Sequence record: PZ445442.1
Origin: a phage
DNA: 64,000 nt
Direction: 5' to 3' (one strand)
Shown here: positions 18,761-62,366 of the stretch, one piece after another
Numbering within the stretch: position 1 is the stretch's first letter
Layout: the number at the start of each line of letters is the position of its first letter
The notes under the pieces: model-generated
What the model was told of the DNA's origin: nothing
Databases searched by the model: none
What the model saw: only the letters and a program-made list of their open reading frames with translations
Program-made: the position numbers and the translations under genes

Positions 18761-19329
18761 AATTTTTGAGAAAATAGTCTATACGTGAACAGTAAGGCAT
18801 GCAATAGTAACAATTGTTATTGTATCCAGTGTGTTGAGTATGCCCAGTATGTCACCATTGTGTCCAGTATGTCAGACAAGTTTTCCTCCTCTTTGTCAAG
18901 TGCTGCATGAAAAATTTACAAACTGGTATGGTAGCATTTTTGCGGCCCTGTTTACATTCAGTAATGTATGTATAATCCTTGTTGTGTGGGCGTTTAGACG
19001 TCTAGACGGTTGGAAGTCTACAGGTCAATATCTAATCTATTGGCTGCTAACTATATCCCACACAAATAGTAAGAAATATGATTGTTATATGCGTAAACTG
19101 TAACTCATGTTATCAATCCCTGTATGTATCACCAGTGGTGCGCATAATGGGTATTATGTTAAATTGCCCGTAATGATAACTATTCTCACAATGATAGGTA
19201 TTCTCATTCACCCCAACAAAATAGGTTGCAAATGTTGTGCCACTGTGTGAACGGCCTCACCTATTAATTTGCCTCACTGCCTCGATATTTGAGAATTATT
19301 ATAAAAATGAGAAGTATTCCCATTCCGTC

Positions 19330-19630
19330 CGCCTGGCAGCACTCCAGTCGCTACGGCTCCTGACAGGGCAGCACTCCTGTAGGTCAGGTCAAAATCGGGG
19401 TAGAACTGGACCTGTTCAGATATTTCTGGCTGACTCTTCAGGTCTGTGTGGGAAAAGCCAACCTCTCCGGCGGGGCAGGGGAGGTAAATTAAAAAATTTA
19501 CGTGGTGTATGAAGAGCCCTTCAGGTAAGGCATGTATTATAGGATGAAACCCTCTTCAGGCATGATATTTGTGGGTGTGATATTTGCTGGAAAGCCAGAT
19601 ATGACGGGACTCCCGGCGGGGCAGGGGTAG
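19330..19630. repeat. short GC-rich direct repeats (GGCAGCACTCC x2; C(T)CCGGCGGGGCAGGGG at 19457 and 19609)
   Basis: Direct reading. Confidence 0.45.
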
Positions 19631-20323
19631 TACAGACGGGGAAATATGGGGATGTAGTTGGGGAAATTGATCAGGCAGGTGGGGTATAGGATATGTTACA
19701 AGTATGTTAAATATGGAGGTTGAATATCTGTAGGATTTGTGTGTAAAATCAAAGACTTAAGTGGTGTTGTGGTATTTTCTATAAATAATTCAAGTTTAAT
19801 AGGTAATATTTGCCTCTATCCACTTTGTGTGGTAAACAGATTCAGATGAGATTAGTTTACAAGTGTATACATAATATACAAATTAAAGATACAGGAAACC
19901 CCCCTCCCCCTTCGGCTACCATTCACCTTTTCCTCTGACTGGTACTTAAACACTTATTCAGACTCTTCAGGTTATCACCCATATATCATATGGCAGTGAC
20001 TGGTGTCCTCCGGCCCCTCTTTCGTCACCCGTCCGCTTCGCCATGCTAATGCCATAGCCAAAGGTTCGGTTGTTCACCCTGTTCACTCAGGTGTATCTCC
20101 ATACCCCTTCAAACCGAAGAGAACAGAAAACCCGAATTACTCGGTAAAAGAAAAGAGAAGAACTTAATTTTATCAGGATAGGCAAGAATGTCAAGGCATG
20201 ACTGCTCACTAAACAAGCAAACAGTCATGTGTGGGAGGTAAGTGATTGTGGTGGTGGGAAATTTAGTTGAAAGATGTGTTATAGGTGCGCTTCCAGCACT
20301 TTAGCCGGGCAGCTAATTGTGTG

Positions 20324-20539
20324 TCAGTCCAGCGGTTCATCCTCTACTTCACTGAAATCAATGTTCATGGTCTCTTCCCAACCATCGATCTCAGCACAAG
20401 AGTGGAGTTCTTTAGGGTTTACTCCCAAAGCCTCAGCAACAGAGTCTATATTTAACACCTCTGGCAGGTATGATTCATCGAATTCAAGGTAAATCAGGCC
20501 ACGAGTGTTGTCAGCTCCACCAAATATTTCTATCTTCAT
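20324..20539 (-). CDS. hypothetical small acidic protein
   Basis: 71-aa ORF, last gene of - strand block. Confidence 0.45.
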   Translation of the reverse strand: MKIEIFGGADNTRGLIYLEFDESYLPEVLNIDSVAEALGVNPKELHSCAEIDGWEETMNIDFSEVEDEPLD

Positions 20540-20660
20540 GAAATCTCCTCTGGAAATGAGAGTGTGAACAGGGTTTTATACGTTCCAATACGCTGGAATT
20601 ATGCTCGTTTTCCTCTTCAGGCCATGCTTTAGCATGAGGAACCTGTGTGGGCTCGGTGCT

Positions 20661-21074
20661 TCATAGTCTACCACCTCTGAACTCTTCGTGCTCAGGCATA
20701 ATAGAGAACCAGATATCTACGATGTCCTCCCACGTCAGGTCATTAGCCTCAGGATCTGTCTGGGGCGAAGATGAAGAATCTTCAGAATCGAAGTTTTCCT
20801 CTTTCACTGGCTCAGTCAATGGACATATGGTCACTCCTTCAGATGTTTCTTCAGATGCATGTGTGTTGATCATGTTCCACCCGTGAGTATTCCGGCAACA
20901 GCCGCTATGGACGTAATGATCATCAGGATCACCACTAAAACTTCGGACAATGTTCTCATTGTGTATCCCATATTCTCCAAACGATGTGTGGATACTATCA
21001 CGAGAGCGGTAATGTGTCAACAGAAACGCCGCGAGGGTTTGGTTAAAATCCGAGCGTATGGTGATTTGGGTCAA
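20661..21074 (-). CDS. hypothetical protein
   Basis: 137-aa ORF. Confidence 0.45.
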   Translation of the reverse strand: MTQITIRSDFNQTLAAFLLTHYRSRDSIHTSFGEYGIHNENIVRSFSGDPDDHYVHSGCCRNTHGWNMINTHASEETSEGVTICPLTEPVKEENFDSEDSSSSPQTDPEANDLTWEDIVDIWFSIMPEHEEFRGGRL

Positions 21075-21233
21075 AACGGACGTGCGTTCTCGCTACGCTC
21101 GAAAGAGAGATTTGTTTGTAGGAAGCTCTTAAACGCTCTGTAATTAGATTATCTGTCTAAGGTAGGCAATCGTGCACCAGATAAAGAAAAGGACGCCACA
21201 GAGCGTCCTAGGTGTCTTAAATTTGATATTTTG

Positions 21234-21545
21234 CTATACCCATGAGGGCTTATCAAGGTTGGAGTAGCTGAAAGGTGTCAAAAGGTGACTGTCAAAATCT
21301 CTCAAACTATCCAAATCTTTTTCCTCGTCCTGACACCATCTGTGCCTACACTTATTGTTGTAGTGCATAGAATGCATAGCGTTCTGCAACTTAACAGGCA
21401 CAAGTGATTCAGGAGTAGATAGTATTGTCGGGTATGCCAGAACCACCTCAAACAGTGGAAACACATCGAAACTAAAGTCTACCTCTGCAGAGGTTGATGG
21501 CATGTAAGAGTATTTAGCCGCCTTTGTAGACATAATCCACCTCAC
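21234..21545 (-). CDS. hypothetical protein
   Basis: 103-aa ORF, overlaps neighbor by 4 nt. Confidence 0.45.
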   Translation of the reverse strand: MRWIMSTKAAKYSYMPSTSAEVDFSFDVFPLFEVVLAYPTILSTPESLVPVKLQNAMHSMHYNNKCRHRWCQDEEKDLDSLRDFDSHLLTPFSYSNLDKPSWV

Positions 21546-21868
21546 ACAGGTTTGATAATACCTTTACCGAATAACTCTTCGTATCTAATCTTATCCGGAT
21601 CCCACTCCTGGATAATTTCGAAGACAATATCCAACCCAGGGATAATCACTTCTCCAGTGTCAAGTTTGGCAAGAACAAAACCAGAAGGCTGAATGGTTTC
21701 CCAGTTGCGACGATTGGAATAGAAGACCTCGAAAATATCACCGACCTTGATCTGTTGATCAAGATGTTCAAGATTCTCTTTCATATAGACGCAGCGTATT
21801 TTTCGTGCAGGCCATAGACCGCCTGCATCACGTTCATTCAATTCTTTTACAGTAATCGGTATACCCAT
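21542..21868 (-). CDS. hypothetical protein
   Basis: 108-aa ORF. Confidence 0.5.
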   Translation of the reverse strand: MGIPITVKELNERDAGGLWPARKIRCVYMKENLEHLDQQIKVGDIFEVFYSNRRNWETIQPSGFVLAKLDTGEVIIPGLDIVFEIIQEWDPDKIRYEELFGKGIIKPV

Positions 21869-21923
21869 CTCAAATCTCCTTCATAGATAGTAAAAAGAGG
21901 GGCCCAAGCCCCTCTCTTTGTCA

Positions 21924-22229
21924 TTATTCTACAGAGCGTTTGAACAGAATGTCTGCCTCAGACATGTGCTCAACCTCTTCTTCGATTTTAGCTCGACGTT
22001 TTTCAGCCTCATAGCGAATATCGAACTCGGTAGCCACCAGGGATTTGATGAATTTAGGAGAATACAGGTGATCCTGCTTCTCTACGAGAATGATATCCTT
22101 AATGGCATCTTTCAGATCTTTAATCTGAAGTTGGAGTTCTACCAGTTCTTCGATTGTTTTGCGAAGGCGATCACGCTCTGCAGTGTCAGAAGGAAGAGAG
22201 GTGAACAGTTCAACTTTAGATTTAGCCAT
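21924..22229 (-). CDS. hypothetical coiled-coil protein
   Basis: 101-aa ORF. Confidence 0.5.
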   Translation of the reverse strand: MAKSKVELFTSLPSDTAERDRLRKTIEELVELQLQIKDLKDAIKDIILVEKQDHLYSPKFIKSLVATEFDIRYEAEKRRAKIEEEVEHMSEADILFKRSVE

Positions 22230-22257
22230 AGTAAGAGTCTCCTTATGTTGTTTTAAA

Positions 22258-22575
22258 TTAACGTTCTACAAAAATACCGTTCAGTTCAATAACCAGGAAT
22301 TTCTGGTCTTCGCTATCGTCTCGTGCCAGCACCTCACAGACGTATCGGTCATCCCCATCATCATCGCAGTCAAATACAAGACTGAGGACTTTATCATGAT
22401 AAACCTTCGCCACTACCGCCTCGTAAGTATTGCCGATTGTGAATCCAAGATAATCTCCAATGCATTTGACAACAACATGATCGCCAGCATTTAAGTCAAT
22501 CTTCGTCATTACTGCGCTCCTTGGGTAATAATACTGTATGTAAAACTTTAACCAGAGATGTGAATAACGCCCCAA
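22258..22575 (-). CDS. hypothetical protein
   Basis: 105-aa ORF. Confidence 0.5.
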   Translation of the reverse strand: MGRYSHLWLKFYIQYYYPRSAVMTKIDLNAGDHVVVKCIGDYLGFTIGNTYEAVVAKVYHDKVLSLVFDCDDDGDDRYVCEVLARDDSEDQKFLVIELNGIFVER

Positions 22576-22664
22576 AACACACCGATAGCGCTAAAACAGA
22601 CAAGGCCATCATTAAAGCTTCAGTAAAATCAGTCATTCCTCACCTCTTGTTAGTCACTATACTA

Positions 22665-22928
22665 TCATTTATCCTTGTCGTCAAGAACTTTTTTAAATCT
22701 TTCAGGGATATCTCCCGTTCTTAGATAGTTCATGACCTCGCAAGGTTCCCACTTGAATTTCTTACAGAGTAGGGCGGCTGAGATTGTTTCATTGCGAAAA
22801 GAAAGGATATTAATATCCCACTCTGAGAACCCCAACTTCCGAAGGGTAGCTACAGAAATCCTTACCGCAACCCAGCAGCAAAAACATGCAACAAACGCCA
22901 CTGCTACAACCCACATCAGGATGTTCAT
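22665..22928 (-). CDS. putative membrane protein
   Basis: N-terminal hydrophobic helix WVVAVAFVACFCCWVAV. Confidence 0.45.
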   Translation of the reverse strand: MNILMWVVAVAFVACFCCWVAVRISVATLRKLGFSEWDINILSFRNETISAALLCKKFKWEPCEVMNYLRTGDIPERFKKVLDDKDK

Positions 22929-23017
22929 ATAAGCACCTTACTGAAATACAAGACACAGTGTTAAGGTTACTGACCAGCAAATAATTAACAGTGCCGTTGC
23001 AACCTTGGCAAGATTTA

Positions 23018-23305
23018 TCATAGTGCCTCTAAGATTTCATATCCTTCGGGTCGGAATACAAGCCACTCCGTGGCTCCGTTTGGTCGATACGCTTTATACA
23101 GAACAACCTGGTCTCGGCACATGCACATGGCTACATAGTTTTCATCCACACCTGCAGCCTGCATTGCATCTTCTTCTCCGGCAACTGCTTTGCTTACAAC
23201 TTCCTTGGTAGGCAAGTGTGCGATCAGCTCGTCACCATCATTAATTCCAAAATGGCTGAGTTCGCCGTTGGTATCTTTAATCTTAATCTTAACCAGATCT
23301 TTCAT
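23018..23305 (-). CDS. hypothetical protein
   Basis: 95-aa ORF, abuts neighbor. Confidence 0.5.
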   Translation of the reverse strand: MKDLVKIKIKDTNGELSHFGINDGDELIAHLPTKEVVSKAVAGEEDAMQAAGVDENYVAMCMCRDQVVLYKAYRPNGATEWLVFRPEGYEILEAL

Positions 23306-23634
23306 TAGTCTTCCCCCAGGTTCAAAGGTCCTAAGATTTCATATGCCAGATTAGAAGTTACAAGAGGGTCTTCTGCGTCTTTAGTATTATACCACCCGTG
23401 AATAACCAGAGTCCCACTTTGTTTCATGTCCAACTGGAACTCTTCTGCCGTTTCCTCATCCAGCTCCAAGATTTCCATAAGGTATTTGATGTTAGGGAGG
23501 TATGCAGCTGTTACAGTCCCCTCTACCAGACCTTCAGGCCAACCTACATCTGGATGACAAGTAGGAACCAGGTTGGTCAGCTTAATGGTGTACGCTTTTT
23601 CTGCACGAGCCTTCAGTAACGGGTCAATCTTCAT
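23305..23634 (-). CDS. hypothetical protein
   Basis: 109-aa ORF, abuts neighbor. Confidence 0.5.
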   Translation of the reverse strand: MKIDPLLKARAEKAYTIKLTNLVPTCHPDVGWPEGLVEGTVTAAYLPNIKYLMEILELDEETAEEFQLDMKQSGTLVIHGWYNTKDAEDPLVTSNLAYEILGPLNLGED

Positions 23635-23984
23635 TATTCGTCCTCCTCTTCGGTACCTGCTTCCAGTAATAAGTTAAGAATATCTTCTGCACAAGGCTCA
23701 TAGAACTCTTGGCCTTCATTATCGATGATTTTATAGTCATCTCCACGAATAATCAGGGGATCACTCTCAAAATTATCGAGACCTTTAACAACGACAACAC
23801 GATCGATTGCCATCATTGTAAGAACTTTATCGACATCTTCCTCTGCTACACCATACTGCAGCAGAATGTCTTTGGTAGGAGGAACAGCATCCACCACAAC
23901 ACCGTTACCAAAACCTTCCGGGAGTTTAGCTAAAATATCTTCCGGAACCACATTCACATCAAAACCAGTAATTTCTACTTTCAT
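23634..23984 (-). CDS. small acidic protein, paralog family B
   Basis: Starts MKVEITGF, acidic C-terminus; similar to 23985-24245 and 25409-25678. Confidence 0.5.
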   Translation of the reverse strand: MKVEITGFDVNVVPEDILAKLPEGFGNGVVVDAVPPTKDILLQYGVAEEDVDKVLTMMAIDRVVVVKGLDNFESDPLIIRGDDYKIIDNEGQEFYEPCAEDILNLLLEAGTEEEDE

Positions 23985-24245
23985 TTACAGCACCTCTTCG
24001 TCAACTACTTCATAAAAATGGCTTGGGATTGCAATAGCGTTCTCACCTTCACCCAAGAACACTGTCCCACTAACGATTAACATTAGAAGAACGTCTGCGA
24101 TACCTTCCTCGGGGACGTTGCCAAAACCTTTGATCAGCTCGTAGGTTGGAATATTTACCTCTAAGATGTCACCATCTTTAGAACGGAAATCAACACCGTC
24201 CTGAATCTCTGCCGTTTCAAGGTTTTTCAATTTAATCTTCATCAA
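23985..24245 (-). CDS. small acidic protein, paralog family B
   Basis: MKIKL N-terminus, C-terminal YEVVDEEVL; paralog of 25409-25678. Confidence 0.5.
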   Translation of the reverse strand: MMKIKLKNLETAEIQDGVDFRSKDGDILEVNIPTYELIKGFGNVPEEGIADVLLMLIVSGTVFLGEGENAIAIPSHFYEVVDEEVL

Positions 24246-24321
24246 TCGGTCTCCTGTCTTGTTAAGATGAAGGTATTATTTCACACAGGGTTGGCGTTGT
24301 CAACACCTGTGTGCAAGAAAA

Positions 24322-24717
24322 TTACTGAAACAGTGCAGATAAATTACCTTCTGGTGGGAACTTATCTGCCAAAAACGGTGTTAGCACAGTAGCCTTCTGA
24401 AGATCTGGGGTCCACTCGTTGTTCAGAACATCCCAGTAGTACGCAATATTGCTGTGTGGGTGCCGCATTACGAACTTTTTCCCTTCGTAGTCATCTGAAA
24501 CCTCTACAGAAGAAATAACAACAGAATCTTCAAGGGTTTCTTCATAGAAAGATCCACCTTCAAATTTCCAACGAGATGCAAGAGCCCCTGCCTTGAACGC
24601 TGCAGATAACGGACTGTCGGCAAGAACATACATTTCTTGCACTCTGTCGCTGCGATCTTTGCTTCTTACGTTGTATACAGTATCTGAACTATACTCAACA
24701 CGGTATAGGCTTACCAT
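24322..24717 (-). CDS. hypothetical protein, paralog family C
   Basis: Shares FVMRHPHSNIAYYWDVLNNEWTP with FVIVHPDSRVKHYWNARTKTWTP of 26524-26922. Confidence 0.5.
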   Translation of the reverse strand: MVSLYRVEYSSDTVYNVRSKDRSDRVQEMYVLADSPLSAAFKAGALASRWKFEGGSFYEETLEDSVVISSVEVSDDYEGKKFVMRHPHSNIAYYWDVLNNEWTPDLQKATVLTPFLADKFPPEGNLSALFQ

Positions 24718-25076
24718 TACCGCACCTCCTCAATAACTTCCACATCTGAACCTACCACAAATGCAAAAGGGCAGGTTTCATGAAAGACATCCGGATCGCC
24801 GCCAAGCTTGCTAACAATCTCTCCACCACTAATAAACACAAGCTCACCGATATTCATCAAATTGCTGAAATAGTACCCATAATGATTAAAGAATGCAGCA
24901 GGGTCAGGTAGACTGGTAGCCTCAAGCACTACATCGGTTAAGGTTACTTTCTTATCATAACCTCTCGCCTTTTGAGATGCAAGATCTGCAGAATCCTCAG
25001 GCGACCGGAGATGCACAGGGATTGTTTCACCAATAAAGCGTACTTTCATATTATCACCCAACAACCATAGCTTCAA
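24717..25076 (-). CDS. small acidic protein, paralog family A-like
   Basis: Internal MKVRFIG start likely; C-terminal VEVIEEV. Confidence 0.45.
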   Translation of the reverse strand: MKLWLLGDNMKVRFIGETIPVHLRSPEDSADLASQKARGYDKKVTLTDVVLEATSLPDPAAFFNHYGYYFSNLMNIGELVFISGGEIVSKLGGDPDVFHETCPFAFVVGSDVEVIEEVR

Positions 25077-25317
25077 AAGGAGTCATGAACGAATAAACGG
25101 CATCATCATCAGCTTCAGGGAATGCTCCCAAAGACTTCATGTCTGAGCCCTTGACAAATACAAGGTTTTGATCAAAAGCTTCTTGGGGATCAATCCGATA
25201 CATATTACGTAGAATATCGCTTACCTCCTCATCAAGAGGTGAGTATGCTGTGCACGTTTTTCCGATCAAGCTTTGAGAATCAGGGTATCCACCTGAAGTT
25301 TTAAAATAAACAATCAT
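25054..25317 (-). CDS. hypothetical small protein
   Basis: 87-aa ORF. Confidence 0.45.
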   Translation of the reverse strand: MIVYFKTSGGYPDSQSLIGKTCTAYSPLDEEVSDILRNMYRIDPQEAFDQNLVFVKGSDMKSLGAFPEADDDAVYSFMTPFEAMVVG

Positions 25318-25408
25318 ATAGTATCACCTCTGGCAAGAGATTGGGATTCCTTTCCCACAAATAATTACAAACCTTCCTTATCGAGGAAGTATGCTAATCT
25401 AAGCAGGA

Positions 25409-25678
25409 TTATTCCTCTACAATCTCATACACATCAGGAGTTACAATCAACTCTTCTCCGTTACCAGGTGCAACAAACACCACCAAACCTTCAGGTGTGT
25501 GCTTTTTAGCCATCTCGATAACATCTTCCCGCAGAGCTGGCTCCATCAGATCAAAACCTTCACCCAGGGCATCACGAACCACCTTCATATAGTCCACTGG
25601 TTGTGCTTCAACAATCATGCCTTCAACCAGACCACAATTTTTGTCTGCCAGCTCAGTTTTGAATAATTTAATTTTCAT
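25409..25678 (-). CDS. small acidic protein, paralog family B
   Basis: MKIKLFKTELA... YEIVEE. Confidence 0.5.
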   Translation of the reverse strand: MKIKLFKTELADKNCGLVEGMIVEAQPVDYMKVVRDALGEGFDLMEPALREDVIEMAKKHTPEGLVVFVAPGNGEELIVTPDVYEIVEE

Positions 25679-25815
25679 TTGGAGGTCTCCTCAATTATTT
25701 GATATTAATAGCCGTAACCTAACACATTAACTACAACTGCGATTGCAAACATAATTTCAAAGCATGCAATCTCTACATTTGGGACTAATTTCTTAATCAC
25801 ACCCATTGTAGCACC

Positions 25816-26133
25816 TCATTCTCCAAAGTCAATCTTTACTTTGCCTTTCCCCTTACCTTTCTTTCCACCGCATTTAGCCAGCTGACGTGCTGCAACATCT
25901 ACCATACGGTCAGTTGCCTCGTAAGCATCACTGCCTTTAGCCTTGGCAATAACTTCTTTTCCAGAATTGTCAAAAATGAACGCCATAACTTCCTGGTGAT
26001 CATTTTCAACTTTTACACTCACACGTGCATAGTTGGCAGAGGGGTGCAAACGCTCCAGCTTAGACATTTTGTGGGAAATGAAAGACACCATACCTTCAGT
26101 GATTTCTACGTTGCCAGTGATTTCAATTTGCAT
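25816..26133 (-). CDS. hpf: ribosome hibernation promoting factor / RaiA-family homolog
   Basis: Aligns by eye along its length to E. coli HPF (I.G.NVEIT...KLE...AxI...G...DxYxA...RQLxK); K/G-rich C-terminal tail. Confidence 0.7.
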   Translation of the reverse strand: MQIEITGNVEITEGMVSFISHKMSKLERLHPSANYARVSVKVENDHQEVMAFIFDNSGKEVIAKAKGSDAYEATDRMVDVAARQLAKCGGKKGKGKGKVKIDFGE

Positions 26134-26215
26134 AACGTGTTCCTTTTAAAGAAGAGGGAACCAAACCCTCTTTGAAAACAATGATACTAAATCTGAAGCG
26201 TTGTGTCAACAGTTT

Positions 26216-26506
26216 TTACAGCTTGTTGTCGATAGTTCTTAAAATATCTACAGCAAGATCTGCCATTTTTCGAACATACTCTGCAAACTCAACAGGATCC
26301 TTGATCGAAGAATTCACAGGGTCGTACCCTAGAGCGTTCAAAATGGCTGCAGCATCTACAACCTTCTCATCATTTGCGAAGATCTCTCCGTCAAACTTGT
26401 AGGTCCATTTTGAGTCAACCTTAGCAGAGCAGGGTTTGTCCATGCTTGTTACACCATCGTCTTTAAACTCTCCTGCGTTATCAATATTTAGAATTAAATC
26501 CATCAT
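26216..26506 (-). CDS. hypothetical protein
   Basis: 96-aa ORF. Confidence 0.45.
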   Translation of the reverse strand: MMDLILNIDNAGEFKDDGVTSMDKPCSAKVDSKWTYKFDGEIFANDEKVVDAAAILNALGYDPVNSSIKDPVEFAEYVRKMADLAVDILRTIDNKL

Positions 26507-26523
26507 AGTGACACCTCACTGTT

Positions 26524-26922
26524 TCAGTTTAGCTTTTCTTCAACAACCCCATAGCTCGGGGCAGAGTCAAGAGCTTTTTGGTTTAAAAGTGGTGTAGCAG
26601 AATCTGCAAACGGTGTCCAAGTTTTTGTTCTGGCATTCCAGTAATGCTTCACTCTGGAATCTGGATGCACTATAACAAAAACTTTTTCACTTGTCAACAC
26701 ATTAATTTCTTCTACACCCTTGCTGATAATTTCTCCGTCATAGCCTCCAGTCTGGTATCCTTCGTACCAGGTTCTTGCATAGGCATAGCCAGCCTGCCAG
26801 CATGCAGCCTCCTCCGAGGTGGAGACTACGTAGAAGTCTTTCTCAAATTCCGGAATACGCCCTTGCTTTACGCTCCAAGCTCCGCGAATTTTCATTGTAA
26901 CTTTGAATAGTTTATTTTTCAC
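26524..26922 (-). CDS. hypothetical protein, paralog family C
   Basis: Paralog of 24322-24717. Confidence 0.5.
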   Translation of the reverse strand: MKNKLFKVTMKIRGAWSVKQGRIPEFEKDFYVVSTSEEAACWQAGYAYARTWYEGYQTGGYDGEIISKGVEEINVLTSEKVFVIVHPDSRVKHYWNARTKTWTPFADSATPLLNQKALDSAPSYGVVEEKLN

Positions 26923-26934
26923 AACGGTTACCCA

Positions 26935-27219
26935 TCACAGCTCTACAATATCTGCATCTGACCCTGCCCCAAAGGCATAATAGGACTCTTCCCCGAAATA
27001 ATATTCCGGTGCACCAGCAGCGATCAGGTCTGATCCCAAAATAAACACCACGTTGTGGCCTACATAGCTGTGATGTTGCCGCACAGGATCATCCCACGGC
27101 AACCCTTCAAAGTATACCGCAGGAACGACCTTTCCTTTCAGGAAGGATTGCCCCAAGTAGACGTTAGAATCAAGAATTTTAACCTTCATGATCGTCCTCC
27201 ACGATCTCCACATCCTCAC
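26935..27219 (-). CDS. small protein, paralog family A (likely starts at internal MKVKILD, about 27189)
   Basis: MKVKILDSN...DLIAAGA...DADIVEL. Confidence 0.5.
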   Translation of the reverse strand: MRMWRSWRTIMKVKILDSNVYLGQSFLKGKVVPAVYFEGLPWDDPVRQHHSYVGHNVVFILGSDLIAAGAPEYYFGEESYYAFGAGSDADIVEL

Positions 27220-27406
27220 CTAGGGCAAAGTTGTAGGTCCACTGACTGTCAAAGCAGTCCTGAGATGCACCAGCGGCAATAAGATCTGCCCCTTTTATTT
27301 TTAAAAGGTCAGGGTAATCTTCGTTAGGTACAGCAGTAAACACTTTCCCTACTAAAGGCTCCTGACCAATATAGAAGCTTGAATCTAAAACTTTAACTTT
27401 CATCAA
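27179..27406 (-). CDS. small protein, paralog family A
   Basis: MMKVKVLDSS...GADLIAAGASQD...EDVEIVEDD. Confidence 0.5.
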   Translation of the reverse strand: MMKVKVLDSSFYIGQEPLVGKVFTAVPNEDYPDLLKIKGADLIAAGASQDCFDSQWTYNFALGEDVEIVEDDHEG

Positions 27407-27690
27407 CGGTCTCCATCAGGTGGTTGTGGGACGTAAACACTGTTACGAATATCGTCCGCAGTATAGTAATAAGTGTCTCCAACCCTATCTCTGGCTGCAA
27501 TGTACTCTGCTATACCAATAAGTGCCATTGATTTGGTGGCGTATCTTCCCAACTCGTTAGCTCCCCAGTAGAATTTAGACCAGTAGGGAATAAGACCGAA
27601 CAAATATACCTTTTGACGAACTTCCCAGTAAGTGCCTTTTCCGACAAGTTTAAACTCGACTTCACTACTGTTAATCTTTTTCATTATCAA
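27403..27690 (-). CDS. hypothetical protein
   Basis: 95-aa ORF. Confidence 0.45.
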   Translation of the reverse strand: MIMKKINSSEVEFKLVGKGTYWEVRQKVYLFGLIPYWSKFYWGANELGRYATKSMALIGIAEYIAARDRVGDTYYYTADDIRNSVYVPQPPDGDR

Positions 27691-27983
27691 TCTCCCTCTA
27701 CCGTGGTCGGATTGTCAGTAAGAAATTGAGCATTGGCTGGAGGCACGCCTGACATTTTCCACACAACCATAAGTTTGTAACCCGGCACCCTGTTAAGTGC
27801 AGATCGAGTAGAGTTTGTGCACGTATACTTTCGCTTTCCAAACCCGTTCTCCATCATAATCCAGTACCCAGTATCTTTGTCACCAGGTATCGGTAGACCA
27901 CCTTCATCAACCCACTGAATGGACCACGGCACGATGGCTACAGCTTTATATTTAAACTTTTTAAACCACTCAAAAAGTTTCAT
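27687..27983 (-). CDS. hypothetical protein
   Basis: 98-aa ORF. Confidence 0.45.
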   Translation of the reverse strand: MKLFEWFKKFKYKAVAIVPWSIQWVDEGGLPIPGDKDTGYWIMMENGFGKRKYTCTNSTRSALNRVPGYKLMVVWKMSGVPPANAQFLTDNPTTVEGD

Positions 27984-27986
27984 AAT

Positions 27987-28076
27987 TCAGCCTCGCATAG
28001 ACATAATCACTATAAACAGGCAAACAATGAATCCGAATGCCACGCCACCCATAAACGTTAATATTGATGCAATCAT
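27987..28076 (-). CDS. 29-aa hydrophobic peptide (MIASILTFMGGVAFGFIVCLFIVIMSMRG), copy 1 of tandem duplication
   Basis: Encoded on - strand within 96-bp tandem unit; fits exactly between flanking ORFs; GAGG 10 nt upstream. Confidence 0.4.
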   Translation of the reverse strand: MIASILTFMGGVAFGFIVCLFIVIMSMRG

Positions 28077-28188
28077 AGTCAATCAGCCTCGCATAGACAT
28101 AATCACTATAAACAGGCAAACAATGAATCCGAATGCCACGCCACCCATAAACGTTAATATTGATGCAATCATAGTCAATCAGCCTCGC
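27988..28188. repeat. perfect tandem direct repeat, 96-bp unit, about 2.1 copies
   Basis: Unit CAGCCTCGCATAGACATAATCACTATAAACAGGCAAACAATGAATCCGAATGCCACGCCACCCATAAACGTTAATATTGATGCAATCATAGTCAAT repeats at 27988 and 28084. Confidence 0.9.
28083..28172 (-). CDS. 29-aa hydrophobic peptide, copy 2 (identical)
   Basis: Second 96-bp unit. Confidence 0.4.
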   Translation of the reverse strand: MIASILTFMGGVAFGFIVCLFIVIMSMRG

Positions 28189-28360
28189 TTGGCAACTCTT
28201 CTACCTTAACATGCCGAAAAGTGTTACCGTAATGGTTGATCCATGACATCAGCTCGCTTTCTTGCTCTTCCTCTGGGATGAACTCTCGAATGCTGACAAG
28301 TTTTAAGAAAACCCAATCACAATCTGCACCCATTCTACCAGACAGGCAATAGTGCTTCAT
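28175..28360 (-). CDS. hypothetical protein
   Basis: 61-aa ORF. Confidence 0.4.
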   Translation of the reverse strand: MKHYCLSGRMGADCDWVFLKLVSIREFIPEEEQESELMSWINHYGNTFRHVKVEELPSEAD

Positions 28361-28378
28361 AAAACCCTCCCGCCTGGT

Positions 28379-28573
28379 TTAGAATATTGCTTCTTCCATT
28401 GCGCCTGAGAGCAACAAAGAGGTGATCTGGCTAACATTCATCTCAGACTCTACTTCCTCCCCTTTGAAAGGTTCGCGGCAGAATAGGACTGTTTCAGGAC
28501 TTTTACTTCGAACAATATAATACAAATCATTCAATGTGTTGTAGTAATAAGTGTTAAAATGTAAGTTTTTCAT
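28379..28573 (-). CDS. hypothetical protein
   Basis: 64-aa ORF. Confidence 0.4.
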   Translation of the reverse strand: MKNLHFNTYYYNTLNDLYYIVRSKSPETVLFCREPFKGEEVESEMNVSQITSLLLSGAMEEAIF

Positions 28574-28857
28574 TTTCTAGTCCTCTTCTTAGATTTTTGT
28601 GCAGAAACGCTTTCTGCAATACGAGACAGGCGTTCTTCTGAAGCTTTACCTATCCCAGGTTTCTTGAGCGGGTTATCTTTATGACCGCAATCCAATTGGA
28701 TATTGGATACCTCCCCAACCTTGTAAGTCAATTCTAGCAAAAGGTTGTCGTCCTTGTCAAATGTTCTTACGATAAATTTTTTATCGTTCTCCTGAACTTC
28801 ATATCTGGTACCTGCAGTATACAACATGGTACCATCAGCATAGGATATCCAGATCAT
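28570..28857 (-). CDS. hypothetical protein
   Basis: 95-aa ORF. Confidence 0.45.
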   Translation of the reverse strand: MIWISYADGTMLYTAGTRYEVQENDKKFIVRTFDKDDNLLLELTYKVGEVSNIQLDCGHKDNPLKKPGIGKASEERLSRIAESVSAQKSKKRTRK

Positions 28858-29201
28858 TGAGCCTCCTTCTGCTGCAACAGCATTAACTCTTTGTTAGAGA
28901 TCTTTACTGCTGTTTTTATTGTTCCATCTTTACGGAACCACGACCAGAACTCTACAGTGTCCCCACTATCAAGCAAAGCATACCCGTGGTAGAAGTCTTT
29001 GTCCTTAGACAGTTTCTCATCTATGTCTGCATCGACACATTCATGATCCATAGCATTTTGCCTGAATGCATCGGTTATGCCAATGCACGCCTTGCTCTCA
29101 AGACTGGTATATCCGATATCTTTTAATTCAGTTTCCCAAGTCCAGTACCCTATAAAAGCTAAAACAGCTACCCACAGTAATAACGTTTTAATCTTTGGCA
29201 T
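28854..29201 (-). CDS. putative membrane-anchored/exported protein
   Basis: N-terminal signal-anchor LLLWVAVLAFIGYWTW. Confidence 0.45.
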   Translation of the reverse strand: MPKIKTLLLWVAVLAFIGYWTWETELKDIGYTSLESKACIGITDAFRQNAMDHECVDADIDEKLSKDKDFYHGYALLDSGDTVEFWSWFRKDGTIKTAVKISNKELMLLQQKEAQ

Positions 29202-29263
29202 TCTCTCTACCTCTTTCTTAGTTTATTTCACTATGGCACATCCTTTGTGCCATATCTCAACTA

Positions 29264-29734
29264 CTACTTAAATAGTAGTTCAAAATAGTGCAAAATTAAC
29301 AGAAGTTGAACTACACCTAGTGCAACGGCAAGTATGTTAATCTTAGAATCGAAAAACTTCTTAACTTTTACTCTAAAAGGTTCCTTAATGTCCTTTACGA
29401 TCCTATCTATAGATGACCTCATATCTCTGATTACCATCCTGAACATTAAAGACGGATGCTCCCCCATCTCTGTAACGGAATCGAAAACATACTCTCTTCG
29501 GTCATAAGGGCCGCCAGCTCTGCGTATTAACCTCTCCACAGAGACCTCGAACGTCACACCTGTAACGTAATCATCTATAACAAGTCGTGACGGGTCTTTA
29601 CCTTTACTATCAAGAGGTATCAAAGTTATCTTTCCAGATTTTGTTAAAATTTCCCCTTTTTCAAGCAAGGTGTACCAATGCTCTCTGCCAAGACTGTTGA
29701 GGCACGTTTTTACATATTTAACAAACATCGTCAC
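29264..29734 (-). CDS. hypothetical protein with C-terminal TM helix
   Basis: 156-aa ORF, C-terminal ILAVALGVVQLLLILHYF. Confidence 0.45.
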   Translation of the reverse strand: MTMFVKYVKTCLNSLGREHWYTLLEKGEILTKSGKITLIPLDSKGKDPSRLVIDDYVTGVTFEVSVERLIRRAGGPYDRREYVFDSVTEMGEHPSLMFRMVIRDMRSSIDRIVKDIKEPFRVKVKKFFDSKINILAVALGVVQLLLILHYFELLFK

Positions 29735-29934
29735 CCCTCATCGCACGTCTGATATAACCACTCTATAAAATCTTGATACCATTCTCCCTCTGAGCGCTCC
29801 GTAGGCCAATAATCTTCACCCTCTCGTGCATTAAAATCTGAGTATTCAACTTTCCACTCCTTTACCAGCTCGTGGAGAAGGTTTTCAGCCTGCTCTAAAG
29901 ATTTATTTTTTACCATTGCTGTCTCCTTTTTCAA
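29731..29934 (-). CDS. hypothetical protein
   Basis: 67-aa ORF. Confidence 0.4.
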   Translation of the reverse strand: MKKETAMVKNKSLEQAENLLHELVKEWKVEYSDFNAREGEDYWPTERSEGEWYQDFIEWLYQTCDEG

Positions 29935-30135
29935 GATAGTTATACATCAGAACTGCACCACCTAAGATGGCTACCAGTAACAATACCCCAGATAGCATCT
30001 CAATAAACATGGCTTGAAACACTGGAAGGCCTCCCTAAATTAACGCACCATTTTAAATACATGCTCTTTTCCCATAAAGGTGCCTGGCTAAGATCTGCGT
30101 AGAACGCAATCTCTTTAAGAACAGTATAAACAGTT

Positions 30136-30372
30136 TTAGGTGCGGTCTCCATCCCTACCCTCCTTTTTCTCCTTACGGATATTCTTGTAGTAATCAACCA
30201 GGCACATTATCACGATGAAGATAACAACAGGCCAAAAAGGTGCAGCAGTGATGATGGTGATAAAATCATCAAACTTCACCCTTCGTCTGGACACGATGCA
30301 TACACCTGTCAAGAATACCGCTGTTATAACGGACATTACCAGGTAACCTATTAGCACAACATTTATACTCAT
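30136..30372 (-). CDS. putative membrane protein (two TM helices)
   Basis: 78-aa ORF, two hydrophobic segments. Confidence 0.45.
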   Translation of the reverse strand: MSINVVLIGYLVMSVITAVFLTGVCIVSRRRVKFDDFITIITAAPFWPVVIFIVIMCLVDYYKNIRKEKKEGRDGDRT

Positions 30373-30402
30373 TGGTCCTCCCTTTGTAGGTTAAATTGTA
30401 TA

Positions 30403-30936
30403 CTACGGATGGTTGCTGATGGTGTTAAGAAAATTATCCCGTTCTTTCTCAGAGTTTTCACGAGTGTAGCTGAAAAACATGTCTAGAATAACCTTATTGA
30501 TATATTCCAGCTCCTCTGTGTTCAGGTACTTAGCAGGATCTGCAATGACATCCCAAGTCTCATACAGACCGCACTCATGATACCCCCAACGCTGCTCAAT
30601 TGTCAAGCTGAGTGGCAAATCTTTACCGTCACAAACAACCTTCCATCTACAAATGCTGGTATCTGGGCGTATCTGTGCACGGTATATCTGTACAAAATCC
30701 AATTTGAATTTGAGGTACTCGTCATACAATTTAAGCACAAAGCTCTCGATTTGTGGAGACACTTTTGCAGCAAACTGTGCGTATTTGTACTTGCACTGGA
30801 TGATCTTTCTGCGTTTTGCAGTTAAATTTTTTGCCGCCAGTTGTTCTTCAGTGTATCTCCACCTACGATCAACAAACGCAACAGGGTCTTTGTCCCCATA
30901 GAGGTCTTCCCAGTTAATCAGAAGCATACCTGTCAC
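30403..30936 (-). CDS. hypothetical protein
   Basis: 177-aa ORF. Confidence 0.5.
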   Translation of the reverse strand: MTGMLLINWEDLYGDKDPVAFVDRRWRYTEEQLAAKNLTAKRRKIIQCKYKYAQFAAKVSPQIESFVLKLYDEYLKFKLDFVQIYRAQIRPDTSICRWKVVCDGKDLPLSLTIEQRWGYHECGLYETWDVIADPAKYLNTEELEYINKVILDMFFSYTRENSEKERDNFLNTISNHP

Positions 30937-31166
30937 TCCTCCACAACTTCAAGGCCTTTACCGCCTCGCTCTGGCAGATTACTTAAAGATAGGTAATACA
31001 TATAATCAGGAGAGATCCTGCCAGACTCTGCACCTGCAGCTAGTAAATCCTTCCCTTTAACCAGGACAACATTCTCGTTTGCAGATAGCCGTTTTGCTTC
31101 CACAATTTTACCAACACAGTCAACCAAGGAAGGGTACCCTAAATCTGTAAGAAATTTAACTTTCAT
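30933..31166 (-). CDS. small protein, paralog family A
   Basis: MKVKFLTDLG...GKDLLAAGAESG...LEVVEE. Confidence 0.5.
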   Translation of the reverse strand: MKVKFLTDLGYPSLVDCVGKIVEAKRLSANENVVLVKGKDLLAAGAESGRISPDYMYYLSLSNLPERGGKGLEVVEE

Positions 31167-31205
31167 GCTACCTCCTGCTTCTACCGTCCCTGGTAAGATA
31201 AATTA

Positions 31206-31604
31206 TTACTGAACAGAGCGCGGGGCTGGGAAGGATAACTCTTCTAAAGAGAAGATTTCATTTCCTACCACCCAAGTTGCTGGATCATCTGGGTTGACGG
31301 GATAGATAATCATCACCTCGTCAGTGTTACATACCCGCTTTTTACCTGTGGAGTCATCAGCAACCAGCATGCGCGGTTCTTCAGAAATGCACAGGTAGCC
31401 TCCTCGGCCCACTGTTCCTTCCACAGGGTCTTGCCCTTTGATCACGATGATTATCTTCTCTCCTGAGGCGATATTACCTTGCACACTCACCGTTTGACCA
31501 ACCTTGGATGTGCCAATCTTAGTGACTTCGAACATTACATCCCGAATTACTGTTGCATAATCGCCAGACACTTTCTTACCTTCTTTAGTGATCTCAATCT
31601 TCAT
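31206..31604 (-). CDS. hypothetical protein
   Basis: 132-aa ORF. Confidence 0.5.
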   Translation of the reverse strand: MKIEITKEGKKVSGDYATVIRDVMFEVTKIGTSKVGQTVSVQGNIASGEKIIIVIKGQDPVEGTVGRGGYLCISEEPRMLVADDSTGKKRVCNTDEVMIIYPVNPDDPATWVVGNEIFSLEELSFPAPRSVQ

Positions 31605-31867
31605 ACACTGGGCTCCTTAAATGAATCTATGTAATCAATTAAATCCCAAGCATCGCGATGGGCTGTCAGAGGGTATACTTCCCCAAGAGGGATCATGGCA
31701 ATAAGTCTATCAAAAACCCAATCTGGACGCAACATTTTATGGTGATATTCCCACTCACCTTCTACAGATTTTTTCTGAGTAATCAGGATCTCTGTGTAGT
31801 GTTTCGCCTGTCTTGAGTAAATTGAGAATGACTTGTACATAAATGACCCCCTTGTTGAGAACAACAA
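31601..31867 (-). CDS. hypothetical protein
   Basis: 88-aa ORF. Confidence 0.45.
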   Translation of the reverse strand: MLFSTRGSFMYKSFSIYSRQAKHYTEILITQKKSVEGEWEYHHKMLRPDWVFDRLIAMIPLGEVYPLTAHRDAWDLIDYIDSFKEPSV

Positions 31868-31874
31868 TACACAA

Positions 31875-32189
31875 CTACCAGGTTACTGTCAAGTAGGCAA
31901 CCGTGTTATTTTTCTCTGGAGAGATGCCGACAACATCTACCTGCAAACCTCCTGCCCTTAAATCTCCAACAATGTGCGGGAAGTAATCTGAGAGATGCGA
32001 CGGTAGATTTATCGAAAATCCGCATCCCAGAAAGCCTGCTAACGCTTTATTTTGTATCTCCCCTACAATCGCATCATAAATGGAGTTAAGCTCGTCAGGG
32101 AGCGTTACAGGACGTTTTAGCGCTAACTGGTGTAATTTGTCCTTAGCACTCATTTTCATTTCAGGTCTACCTCTGGGGGTGCCAACCAC
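31875..32189 (-). CDS. hypothetical protein
   Basis: 104-aa ORF. Confidence 0.45.
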   Translation of the reverse strand: MVGTPRGRPEMKMSAKDKLHQLALKRPVTLPDELNSIYDAIVGEIQNKALAGFLGCGFSINLPSHLSDYFPHIVGDLRAGGLQVDVVGISPEKNNTVAYLTVTW

Positions 32190-32689
32190 ATAAATGGCGG
32201 CAAGTCTAAACGGTTTTTCTTATCCCACACAAAATATGCATATGCTTGCCCGTCAGTTCTACCATTTGATTGAAATGATGGACGCTTAGATATTGTGATC
32301 ACAGTAGTAGGTGCATTATCAAGCCACCATTCAAATCTGGCTTTGCTTTCCAGAAAATTAAGACGCAAAAGCATAATAACTACGTCAGCATCTTTCAACG
32401 CCTTGTCTACGAACTCACGGGCCAGACTGTATGGTGGGTTGGTGATAATACAGTCAACATGGTTGTATTCTGTATTCAGATAGTCAACACCTTCTTGGAT
32501 TTCTCCCCATGCAGATCCTAACGGCATACGGGAGTAGAACACACCTGAGGCACTATTCCTGCAAGGCTCTAAGTAGGTCCAGTCTTCTGGGAACGGAATA
32601 AGGTCATACAGCCCTTCTGCACACCACTCCGGTGTCACATACTCATCGTAGGCGTTACGTTGTTCATCAGGTTTTCTAGCACAAGTCAT
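32156..32689 (-). CDS. putative DNA N6-adenine methyltransferase (small phage Dam-like)
   Basis: Catalytic motif IV DCIITNPPY; 177 aa, no obvious separate target-recognition domain. Confidence 0.5.
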   Translation of the reverse strand: MTCARKPDEQRNAYDEYVTPEWCAEGLYDLIPFPEDWTYLEPCRNSASGVFYSRMPLGSAWGEIQEGVDYLNTEYNHVDCIITNPPYSLAREFVDKALKDADVVIMLLRLNFLESKARFEWWLDNAPTTVITISKRPSFQSNGRTDGQAYAYFVWDKKNRLDLPPFMWLAPPEVDLK

Positions 32690-32740
32690 GCAAATCTCCA
32701 GATCATAAAAGCCCTCCGAAGAGGGCTTTAGAATTAATGT

Positions 32741-33790: not shown

Positions 33791-33850
33791 GAGAAATCCT
33801 TAATATTGGAAGTTGAAAGCTATTTATTTAAACCTGATTCACATTTACCT

Positions 33851-59549: not shown

Positions 59550-59624
59550 ACCAGTAAAAACTTAAATATCTGTACTATAAGGATTCGTATGTTTTATGTT
59601 CGCCATGGAACGGATACTATTAAC

Positions 59625-62252: not shown

Positions 62253-62366
62253 ATTTATATTTTTAAATGCATAAATCATACAGATAATGACATTGATATT
62301 TATCGTCGTTTATACTAGTCACTAACTGCTCGAAAATCAGTGTCATTATCAGTGTAATTTATAAAG

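What the first reader, a model, noticed from the sequence alone, without database searches (positions are those of the whole stretch)
25816..26133. Phage-encoded ribosome hibernation factor (HPF/RaiA) homolog
The 105-aa protein aligns by eye across its length with E. coli HPF (NVEIT, KLE, A.I, D.Y.A, RQL.K) and carries a Lys/Gly-rich tail. It sits among small early-type genes, which suggests the phage modulates host ribosome state (100S dimer formation or stalled-ribosome stabilisation) during infection.
Basis: partly seen in the sequence, partly recalled or inferred. Interest (0 to 1): 0.65.

Follow-up and report, generated by a model that had tools for sequence, protein, structure and literature searches.

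The report
Known rV5-type phage HPF homolog
The gene is real and is a true relative of the bacterial ribosome hibernation factor HPF, but it is already annotated in this phage (EmilHeitz, an rV5-like coliphage) and was published in 2019, and what it does during infection is still unknown.

Summary
The ORF at 25816-26133 (minus strand, 105 aa) is real. It passes the curated thresholds of Pfam PF02482 (48.3 bits against 23.7) and TIGR00741. Its AlphaFold model superposes on E. coli HPF from the 100S ribosome (rmsd 1.1 A over 89 residues).

The window is Escherichia phage EmilHeitz (Bas49, Vequintavirus). There the gene is already annotated as 'ribosome hibernation factor'. The protein is 100% identical to rV5 ABI79209. 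Mizuno et al. 2019 described that protein, expressed it in E. coli and did not find it in 70S or 100S fractions, with no change in 100S. Those ribosomes had been washed in 500 mM NH4Cl, so the negative result is weak.

New here:
- The family is an isolated phage clade, at most about 45% identical to any cellular HPF.
- It is under strong purifying selection (dN/dS about 0.05).
- It has its own conserved sigma-70-type promoter.
- It keeps R83, K87, K26 and K23.
- It has replaced K80, K89, T53, H55 and H62, which contact the ribosome in enterobacterial HPF.
- It carries a disordered, lysine-rich tail.

Verdict: the homology is confirmed, the function is unproven, and the finding is already known.

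The parts
25816..26133 (-). Complete hpf-like CDS: 105 codons plus a TGA stop. It equals bas49_0155 / QXV78057.1 of phage EmilHeitz and is 100% identical in protein to rV5 ABI79209.
   Evidence: ORF list; 100% nucleotide match and annotation; protein identity to rV5; dN/dS of 0.04-0.05 in this frame.
25867..26133 (-). [quoted passage not shown]
   Evidence: PF02482 matches residues 3-88. AlphaFold2 pLDDT is about 90 over residues 1-89, with elements E2-7, H13-29, E33-43, E46-55, E60-67 and H70-89. Foldseek gives rmsd 1.0-1.1 A to V. cholerae and E. coli HPF.
25819..25866 (-). Lys/Gly-rich C-terminal tail, residues 90-105 (GKKGKGKGKVKIDFGE), predicted to be disordered.
   Evidence: pLDDT is below 50 for residues 91-105. 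Residues 89-105 have net charge +4. The tail is conserved across the genus, with occasional frameshift truncations in a G/A run (Murica, APCEc02). The divergent lineage P0004 has a different but also basic tail.
26181..26209 (-). Sigma-70-type promoter-like site, TTGACA-17 nt-TATCAT, 48 nt upstream of the ATG.
   Evidence: 11 of 12 consensus matches; sequence read directly. The -35 region AAACTGTTGACAC is invariant in five Vequintavirus genomes and in the divergent lineage whose protein is only 64% identical. Function is inferred, because no transcript data exist.
26140..26145 (-). Shine-Dalgarno-like AAGGAA, 6-7 nt before the ATG.
   Evidence: Read directly from the sequence; annotated as an RBS in phage Murica.
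26152..26172 (-). Small 5'-UTR hairpin, AAGAGGG-7 nt-CCCTCTT. It is not statistically distinctive and is listed only for completeness.
   Evidence: Minimum free energy -9.9 kcal/mol, but z = -0.97 against shuffles. It is absent from the divergent lineage, where GAGGG serves as the SD.

Best explanation
Shown: this is the hpf-like gene that nearly all phages of the genus Vequintavirus (rV5-like) carry. It is a diverged member of the short, single-domain HPF/YfiA family (PF02482). It has been held in the same syntenic position, under strong purifying selection, since before the genus split from an uncultivated sister lineage. It has its own conserved host-type promoter.

Inferred mechanism (about 40-60% likely): host RNA polymerase makes the protein early in infection. 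The protein docks, like HPF and RaiA, in the tRNA/mRNA channel of the 30S subunit of vacant host ribosomes. It would do so through the basic face that it retains: K22 and K25 on helix 1 (E. coli HPF K23 and K26), R28 (Q29), and R83 and K87 on helix 2.

Three features suggest it behaves more like RaiA than like canonical HPF. The head-side contacts are rebuilt (T53 to F, H55 to F, H62 to I). K80 and K89 are lost. A flexible poly-lysine tail about as long as the RaiA tail has been added. I therefore expect it to park or protect 70S monomers with reversible, salt-sensitive binding, rather than to drive RMF-dependent 100S dimers.
For: Family membership:
- PF02482 48.3 bits against 23.7; TIGR00741 45.9 bits against 40.9.
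- Best PDB sequence hits are E. coli HPF chains, E about 5e-12.
- AlphaFold2 model pLDDT 82.7, matching 4hei and 6h4n_x at rmsd 1.0-1.1 A.

A real, functional gene:
- dN/dS of 0.042 and 0.054 against the two most diverged Vequintavirus copies.
- Present in 118 phage records, all Vequintavirus.
- A 64%-identical ortholog in the same gene order in an uncultivated relative.
- GC 43.1%, the same as the phage at 42.7%.

Own promoter: TTGACA-17-TATCAT, with the -35 region invariant across lineages. rV5 promoters are reported to be E. coli-consensus-like (PMC3606486).

Retained contact residues: K23, K26, R83, K87, K91 and, in this phage, E60. The contact list comes from bioRxiv 10.1101/2025.10.07.680626 and was mapped.

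Tail: the RaiA tail runs towards the RMF site. The phage tail is of similar length.

Consistent with no 100S effect: Mizuno et al. saw no change in 100S.
Against: - The identical rV5 protein, expressed from pBAD24 in E. coli NM522, was found in crude extract but not in 70S or 100S fractions by mass spectrometry.
- Only 29 of the 62 columns that are at least 90% conserved in 44 Enterobacterales HPFs are kept.
- Of 14 reported contact positions, 6 are kept in this phage (K23, K26, E60, R83, K87, K91) and one is a conservative change (Q29 to R). The other 7 are replaced or deleted: position 8, T53, H55, H62, K80, N/T86 and K89.
- E60 is deleted in P0004 and P0002.
- The protein fails the HPF and RaiA equivalog cut-offs.
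- The phage tail is basic (+4), whereas the RaiA tail is acidic (-4), so the analogy rests on length only.
- No expression-timing or infection data exist.
Confidence: 0.5

Rival explanations
1. Anti-hibernation factor. The phage protein is a weak, easily displaced competitor of host HPF, RaiA and RMF. It keeps or returns ribosomes to a translatable state in starved or stationary-phase hosts, so that phage mRNAs can be translated. This is the hypothesis of Mizuno et al. 2019.
For: Proposed in PMC6375957. Loss of K80, K89, T53 and H55 would be expected to weaken binding. A tail the length of the RaiA tail could occlude the RMF site. No increase in 100S was seen on expression.
Against: No decrease in 100S was reported either, and no binding was detected. 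A competitor still has to bind. There are no data from stationary-phase infection.
Confidence: 0.2
2. Repurposed fold. The protein no longer binds ribosomes. It uses the beta-alpha-beta-beta-beta-alpha scaffold for another ligand, either a different RNA or a nucleotide signal. SPO1 Acb4 sponges have a dsRBD/HPF-like fold and bind nucleotide signals in this way.
For: It is absent from purified 70S and 100S. About half of the contact residues and 33 of 62 conserved columns are changed. It forms an isolated clade with no cellular relative above about 45% identity among 1.84 billion representatives. Acb4 is structurally similar to V. cholerae HPF 4HEI, which is also the best Foldseek hit of this model.
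Against: The strongest rRNA contacts are kept in both phage lineages: R83 to m4Cm1402, plus K87, K26 and K23. No Acb4 entry is among the 50 best PDB fold matches; the best 35 are all HPF, RaiA or pY chains. The salt wash used in the negative experiment is harsh.
Confidence: 0.2
3. Canonical short HPF. It works with host RMF to convert 70S ribosomes into 100S dimers and so shuts down host translation.
For: It is closer to HPF than to RaiA: NF007780 55.8 bits against NF007654 17.6 bits, and 40% against 22% identity.
Against: No discernible effect on 100S when expressed. It fails the HPF equivalog cut-off of 125 bits. No RMF homolog is present in the window. Global shut-off of ribosomes would also block phage translation (inference).
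Confidence: 0.08
4. A decaying or neutral passenger gene picked up recently from the host.
For: Mizuno et al. suggested a relatively recent transfer.
Against: dN/dS is about 0.05. The gene is retained in essentially every Vequintavirus genome and in a sister lineage at 64% identity. No close cellular donor exists, the best being about 45% identical. Its composition matches the phage.
Confidence: 0.02

Closest known systems
Phage rV5 HPF (ABI79209; 'sigma 54 modulation factor', DQ832317), described by Mizuno et al. 2019, Nat Commun 10:752
   Same: 100% identical protein, same locus and same genus. It is already reported as a Ribosomal_S30AE/HPF homolog.
   Different: Nothing. This is the same gene in another isolate.
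E. coli short HPF (YhbH; PDB 2RQL, 6H4N chain x)
   Same: [quoted passage not shown] K23, K26, E60, R83, K87 and K91 are kept.
   Different: It scores below the HPF equivalog cut-off (55.8 against 125 bits). K80 to V, K89 to G, T53 to F, H55 to F and H62 to I. One residue is deleted in the beta1-alpha1 loop. It has 10 extra C-terminal residues that are Lys/Gly-rich. Its pI is 8.7 against 6.5. It showed no 100S effect.
E. coli RaiA / YfiA / protein Y
   Same: Same fold and the same expected binding site. RaiA also has a C-terminal extension beyond helix 2, which in RaiA runs towards the RMF site.
   Different: Only 22% identity and 17.6 bits against the 158-bit equivalog cut-off. The tails are unrelated in sequence and opposite in charge, +4 against -4.
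HPF-like proteins of jumbo phages GAP32 (K4F6Q6) and PBECO4 (L7TII8); PHROG 8990
   Same: Phage-encoded S30AE-fold proteins.
   Different: Only 22-24% identity, placed in a different PHROG and not found by tblastn, so probably independent acquisitions. Mizuno et al. place GAP32 elsewhere in the tree.
SPO1 Acb4 viral sponge family
   Same: Small phage proteins with a dsRBD/HPF-like alpha/beta fold. Their structural neighbours include V. cholerae HPF 4HEI.
   Different: No sequence link was found. Acb4 lacks the N-terminal strand and works as an oligomeric nucleotide sponge. No Acb4 entry is among the top 50 fold matches.

Membership tests
HPF/YfiA family (Pfam PF02482 Ribosomal_S30AE; TIGR00741) | Profile match above the curated threshold across the whole domain | tested here: met
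   PF02482 48.3 bits against 23.7, residues 3-88 on profile positions 1-83 of 88. TIGR00741 45.9 bits against 40.9.
HPF/YfiA family (Pfam PF02482 Ribosomal_S30AE; TIGR00741) | [quoted passage not shown] | tested here: met
   The AlphaFold2 model has elements E2-7, H13-29, E33-43, E46-55, E60-67 and H70-89. The 35 best PDB matches are all HPF, RaiA or pY chains. This is a prediction, not a solved structure.
HPF/YfiA family (Pfam PF02482 Ribosomal_S30AE; TIGR00741) | Conserved basic residues of helix 2 that contact 16S rRNA (K80, R83, K87, K89, K91) | tested here: inconclusive
   R83, K87 and K91 are kept. K80 becomes V and K89 becomes G, and in P0004 these become T and S. All five are invariant or nearly so in 44 Enterobacterales HPFs.
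HPF/YfiA family (Pfam PF02482 Ribosomal_S30AE; TIGR00741) | Binding in the 30S decoding channel of vacant ribosomes | not testable with these tools
   The only experiment found the identical rV5 protein absent from 70S and 100S after a 500 mM NH4Cl cushion (PMC6375957). The authors themselves list salt stripping and growth phase as caveats.
Short HPF equivalog (NCBIfam NF007780; E. coli YhbH type) | Score above the equivalog cut-off | tested here: not met
   55.8 bits against a cut-off of 125.
Short HPF equivalog (NCBIfam NF007780; E. coli YhbH type) | Contact motif T53/H62 with m2G966, and H55/E60 with the uS9 C-terminus | tested here: not met
   T53 becomes F, H62 becomes I and H55 becomes F. 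E60 is kept here but deleted in P0004 and P0002.
Short HPF equivalog (NCBIfam NF007780; E. coli YhbH type) | Promotes maturation of RMF-dependent 90S into 100S dimers | not testable with these tools
   Mizuno et al. saw no discernible effect on 100S. No RMF homolog was found in the window.
RaiA/YfiA equivalog (NCBIfam NF007654) | Score above the equivalog cut-off | tested here: not met
   17.6 bits against 158; 22% identity.
RaiA/YfiA equivalog (NCBIfam NF007654) | Extended C-terminal tail directed at the RMF site | tested here: inconclusive
   A tail of similar length exists (residues 89-105). It is unrelated in sequence, basic rather than acidic, and predicted to be disordered.
Long HPF (Firmicutes type, with a C-terminal dimerisation domain) | Second, C-terminal dimerisation domain of about 60 residues | tested here: not met
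   The protein has 105 aa, PF02482 is the only Pfam hit, and residues 91-105 are disordered.

The most novel reading that the evidence does not exclude
The Vequintavirus HPF is not a hibernation promoter. It would be a phage-adapted derivative with a new job. One possibility is a reversible placeholder whose poly-lysine tail blocks RMF. That would keep host ribosomes as protected, quickly reusable 70S monomers, shielding the decoding centre from host nucleases, toxins or hibernation during takeover. The other possibility is a protein that has left the ribosome altogether for another RNA or nucleotide ligand. Either would explain four observations together: the rebuilt head-side contacts, the lost K80 and K89, strong purifying selection, and absence from salt-washed ribosomes.
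Probability: 0.3. Interest if true: 0.6.

Novelty: already known. Interest (0 to 1): 0.25.

Why it matters
Phage genes that touch ribosome hibernation could bear on how lytic phages cope with starved or dormant hosts. That question matters for phage therapy. Here, however, the gene and its family assignment are already in GenBank and in a 2019 paper.

What stays open is function. The one published assay was negative, but it used conditions that may strip hibernation factors.

The residue-level comparison made here gives concrete mutants and a concrete hypothesis for anyone repeating the test at low salt or during infection. It shows kept R83, K87 and K26; lost K80, K89, T53 and H55; and an added Lys tail.

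Tried and rejected
- A second 'sigma 54 modulation factor' is annotated two genes downstream in phages pangalan and nomo (window 25409-25678, minus strand). It has no Pfam hit at E up to 0.1 and belongs to its own PHROG of unknown function, so it is a misannotation and not a second HPF.
- P0006 was the second-best hit of the representative search. It is a 1160-aa repeat protein that matches residues 35-81 eight times, so it is a repeat-summed artefact and not an HPF.
- The 5'-UTR hairpin is not better than shuffled sequence (z = -0.97) and is absent from the sister lineage, so no regulatory role is claimed.
- Overlapping plus-strand ORFs (25996-26175 and 26033-26149) were rejected, because the substitution pattern fits the minus-strand frame.
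- A search for an RMF partner in the window found nothing.
- dN/dS against the sister lineage could not be computed because synonymous sites are saturated. Ungapped comparisons with nomo and Murica are invalid because they have one extra codon.
- Polikanov et al. 2012 could not be read because it is not held. The contact residues were taken from a 2025 preprint instead.
- Literature searches for any functional study newer than 2019 found none in the held library.

Full report
**1. Observation**

On the minus strand a Shine-Dalgarno-like AAGGAA lies 6-7 nt upstream of the ATG.

The similarity to HPF is statistically solid:
- Pfam PF02482 (Ribosomal_S30AE): E = 1.8e-12, 48.3 bits against a gathering score of 23.7, covering profile positions 1-83 of 88.
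- NCBIfam TIGR00741 (HPF/YfiA family): 45.9 bits against 40.9.
- The best PDB sequence matches are E. coli HPF chains 2rql, 4v8h and 6h4n, with E about 5e-12 over residues 1-89.
- Identity to E. coli HPF is 40% in a multiple alignment and 43% over 88 aa by tblastn. Identity to E. coli RaiA is 22%.

The motifs seen by eye (NVEITE, KLE, D.Y.A, ARQL.K) are in the printed alignment. The Lys/Gly tail is real (GGKKGKGKGKVKIDFGE, net charge +4).

**2. What the window is, and prior knowledge**

Positions 24000-28000 are 100% identical to Escherichia phage EmilHeitz (Bas49, MZ501062.1; Vequintavirinae, Vequintavirus). In that record the ORF is bas49_0155 / QXV78057.1 and is already annotated 'ribosome hibernation factor'.

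The protein is 100% identical to that of the type phage rV5/V5 (DQ832317, 'sigma 54 modulation factor') and of many other isolates.

Mizuno et al. 2019 (Nat Commun 10:752, PMC6375957) did the following:
- They listed rV5 ABI79209 and its relatives as virus-encoded HPF.
- They placed them among gammaproteobacterial HPFs in a tree.
- They proposed that viral HPF might compete with the cellular factor to prevent ribosome dimers.
- They expressed the rV5 protein in E. coli. It was detected in crude extract but not in 70S or 100S fractions, and 100S formation did not change.

Their ribosomes were pelleted for 20 h through 500 mM NH4Cl from late-exponential cells. The authors name salt stripping, growth phase or true loss of binding as possible reasons. 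From my own knowledge, E. coli RMF, HPF and YfiA were originally found in crude ribosomes and not in high-salt-washed ones, so I regard this negative result as weak.

Mathieu et al. 2020 also note the hpf gene in five rV5-like gut isolates 'as already described' (PMC6969025). I found no later functional study in the held library. The finding is therefore already known. Only the function is open.

**3. Anatomy and evolution (new here)**

*Fold.* An AlphaFold2 model was built on 47 aligned sequences. Mean pLDDT is 82.7, and about 90 over residues 1-89. The fold is beta-alpha-beta-beta-beta-alpha, and the tail (residues 91-105) has pLDDT below 50. The model superposes on V. cholerae HPF (4hei, rmsd 1.0 A over 90 residues) and on E. 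coli HPF in the 100S ribosome (6h4n_x, rmsd 1.1 A over 89). The 35 best PDB matches are all HPF, RaiA or pY chains.

*Distribution.*
- tblastn finds the protein in 118 phage records, all Vequintavirus and all at least 94% identical.
- This count includes 18 'UNVERIFIED Campylobacter phage' records that are in fact this genus.
- Nothing is found in other phages at E up to 1e-3. At E up to 10 only weak 25-30% matches appear.
- A 64%-identical ortholog (P0004, 103 aa) sits in the same gene order on uncultivated contigs up to about 136 kb. Those contigs share only about 73-76% nucleotide identity with Vequintavirus, over one third of the region.

*Isolation from cellular HPFs.* In an exhaustive phmmer search of 1.84 billion representatives, only 22 proteins reach E of 1e-3 or better. 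After the family's own cluster, the best true HPFs are gammaproteobacterial short HPFs at about 45% identity or less. There is no recognisable recent donor, which qualifies the 'relatively recent' transfer suggested in 2019. The gene's GC content (43.1%) equals that of the phage (42.7%).

*Selection.* Nei-Gojobori dN/dS is 0.042 against EcoIv14a_Aya (dS 0.59) and 0.054 against A142 (dS 0.32). This is strong purifying selection in the minus-strand frame.

*Expression signals.*
- A sigma-70-type promoter-like site, TTGACA-17-TATCAT (11 of 12 matches), lies at 26209-26181.
- Its -35 block AAACTGTTGACAC is invariant in five Vequintavirus genomes and in the divergent lineage.
- Kropinski et al. 2013 report that rV5 promoters are E. 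coli-consensus-like, and that the gene lies in a block of 88 mainly small ORFs (PMC3606486).
- Early expression by host RNA polymerase is thus plausible but inferred.
- A short hairpin in the 5' UTR is not significant (z = -0.97) and is missing in the sister lineage.

*Neighbours.* They have no Pfam hits and fall into paralogous PHROGs of unknown function. Nothing nearby is linked to translation, and no RMF homolog is present in the window.

**4. Contact residues**

A 2025 preprint with cryo-EM structures of HPF- and YfiA-bound ribosomes (bioRxiv 10.1101/2025.10.07.680626) lists the key contacts of enterobacterial HPF:
- K80, R83, K87, K89 and K91 on helix 2, with R83 on m4Cm1402.
- T53 and H62 on m2G966.
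- H55 and E60 on the uS9 C-terminus.
- K26 and Q29 on the phosphates next to m3U1498.
- N86 on m3U1498.

In 44 Enterobacterales HPFs these positions are invariant or nearly so. The phage protein compares as follows (E. coli HPF numbering):

| Status | Positions |
|---|---|
| Kept | K23, K26, E60, R83, K87, K91 |
| Conservative change | Q29 to R |
| Replaced | K80 to V, K89 to G, T53 to F, H55 to F, H62 to I, N/T86 to A |
| Deleted | one residue of the beta1-alpha1 loop |

The sister lineage shares the losses (K80 to T, K89 to S, T53 to R, H55 to F) and also lacks E60. Overall, 29 of the 62 columns that are at least 90% conserved in the bacterial proteins are kept.

So the contacts with h44 and the body side look preserved, while the contacts with the 30S head (m2G966, uS9) are rebuilt. 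The protein is also more basic than its cellular relatives: pI 8.7, against 6.5 for HPF and 5.95 for RaiA.

The tail is conserved within the genus, with occasional frameshift truncations in a G/A run (Murica, APCEc02). It is as long as the RaiA tail, which runs towards the RMF site. However, it is basic where the RaiA tail is acidic.

**5. Mechanism**

Shown: a conserved, selected PF02482-family protein with an HPF-like predicted fold and its own host-type promoter-like site.

Inferred (about 50%): it still docks in the 30S tRNA/mRNA channel of vacant host ribosomes, using K23, K26, R83 and K87. Its binding is probably weaker or more salt-sensitive than that of host HPF. With its tail, it acts more like RaiA, parking or protecting 70S monomers, than like a promoter of 100S dimers.

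Rivals:
- A competitive anti-hibernation factor, the 2019 hypothesis (about 0.2).
- A repurposed fold that no longer binds ribosomes (about 0.2). The Acb4 sponge family shows that an HPF/dsRBD-like fold can be turned to nucleotide binding, although no Acb4 entry is among the top fold matches.
- Canonical 100S promotion (about 0.08).
- Neutral passenger gene (refuted by selection and distribution).

**6. Membership**

- Member of the HPF/YfiA family (PF02482, TIGR00741): yes.
- Equivalog of E. coli HPF (NF007780, 55.8 against 125 bits): no.
- Equivalog of RaiA (NF007654, 17.6 against 158 bits): no.
- Long HPF: no, because there is no second domain.
- Ribosome binding and 100S activity, the functional hallmarks, cannot be tested here. 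They were not seen in the single published assay.

**7. Verdict**

Novelty: already known, both as an annotation in this genome and from the 2019 paper. Interest is low (0.25).

What this analysis adds:
- A residue-level picture of what has and has not been kept.
- Evidence for long residence and strong selection in an isolated phage clade.
- A conserved dedicated promoter.
- A clear reason to repeat the ribosome-binding test at low salt and during infection.

Noticed in passing
window 27987-28188: An exact 96-bp tandem duplication (2.1 copies, 100% identical) that duplicates a small membrane-like ORF. GenBank record MZ501062.1 has only one copy. The window is otherwise base-for-base identical to the record wherever it was compared: window 18000-34000 apart from this duplication, and window 33338-63318.
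   Followed up: partly
window 63319-64000: The window runs 682 nt beyond the end of the linear EmilHeitz record. It therefore comes from a differently permuted or different copy of the genome.
   Followed up: no
window 62555-62653 (+): An unusually long tRNA of 97-99 nt in the tRNA cluster. Its anticodon loop reads UUU (Lys), and a roughly 26-nt insertion sits in the variable region. ARAGORN miscalls a 4-base anticodon, and the Rfam tRNA score is only 35.5 bits. GenBank annotates it as tRNA-Lys.
   Followed up: partly
window 62366-62456 (+): ARAGORN finds a tRNA-Ser(UGA) that is not annotated in MZ501062.1. In Rfam it scores best against the tRNA-Sec model, at 41.5 bits and below the gathering score, because of its long variable arm.
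   Followed up: partly
window 24322-27406 (-): The genes around hpf belong to paralogous families of small proteins of unknown function. phrog_7379 occurs twice (24322-24717 and 26524-26922). phrog_5009 occurs two or three times (26935-27219, 27179-27406 and, weakly, 25054-25317). None has a Pfam hit.
   Followed up: partly
window 25409-25678 (-) and GenBank records of related phages: Annotation errors are propagating in GenBank. The unrelated 89-aa neighbour is called 'sigma 54 modulation factor' in pangalan, nomo and others. The HPF gene itself is called 'ATP-dependent protease La type I' in OR062525, OR062530 and MT884008, and 'hypothetical protein' in many records. Its PHROG (12469) is labelled 'unknown function'.
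   Followed up: yes
phage collection records MG0656xx (e.g. L010): Eighteen 'UNVERIFIED Campylobacter phage' records are more than 97% identical to E. coli Vequintavirus genomes across this region. They are probably misassigned hosts or contaminants.
   Followed up: no
window 59623-59708: A short array of 21/43-bp imperfect direct repeats (ACTGTCCGTGATACGGACACT, each unit itself palindromic) lies upstream of the tRNA cluster.
   Followed up: no
L003 / L004 / L005 (Logan contigs ERR6997038_58 etc.): An uncultivated rV5-like phage lineage, on contigs up to about 126-137 kb. It shares only about 73-76% nucleotide identity with Vequintavirus over one third of this region and keeps the same gene order around hpf. 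It is not represented in the phage collection that was searched.
   Followed up: partly
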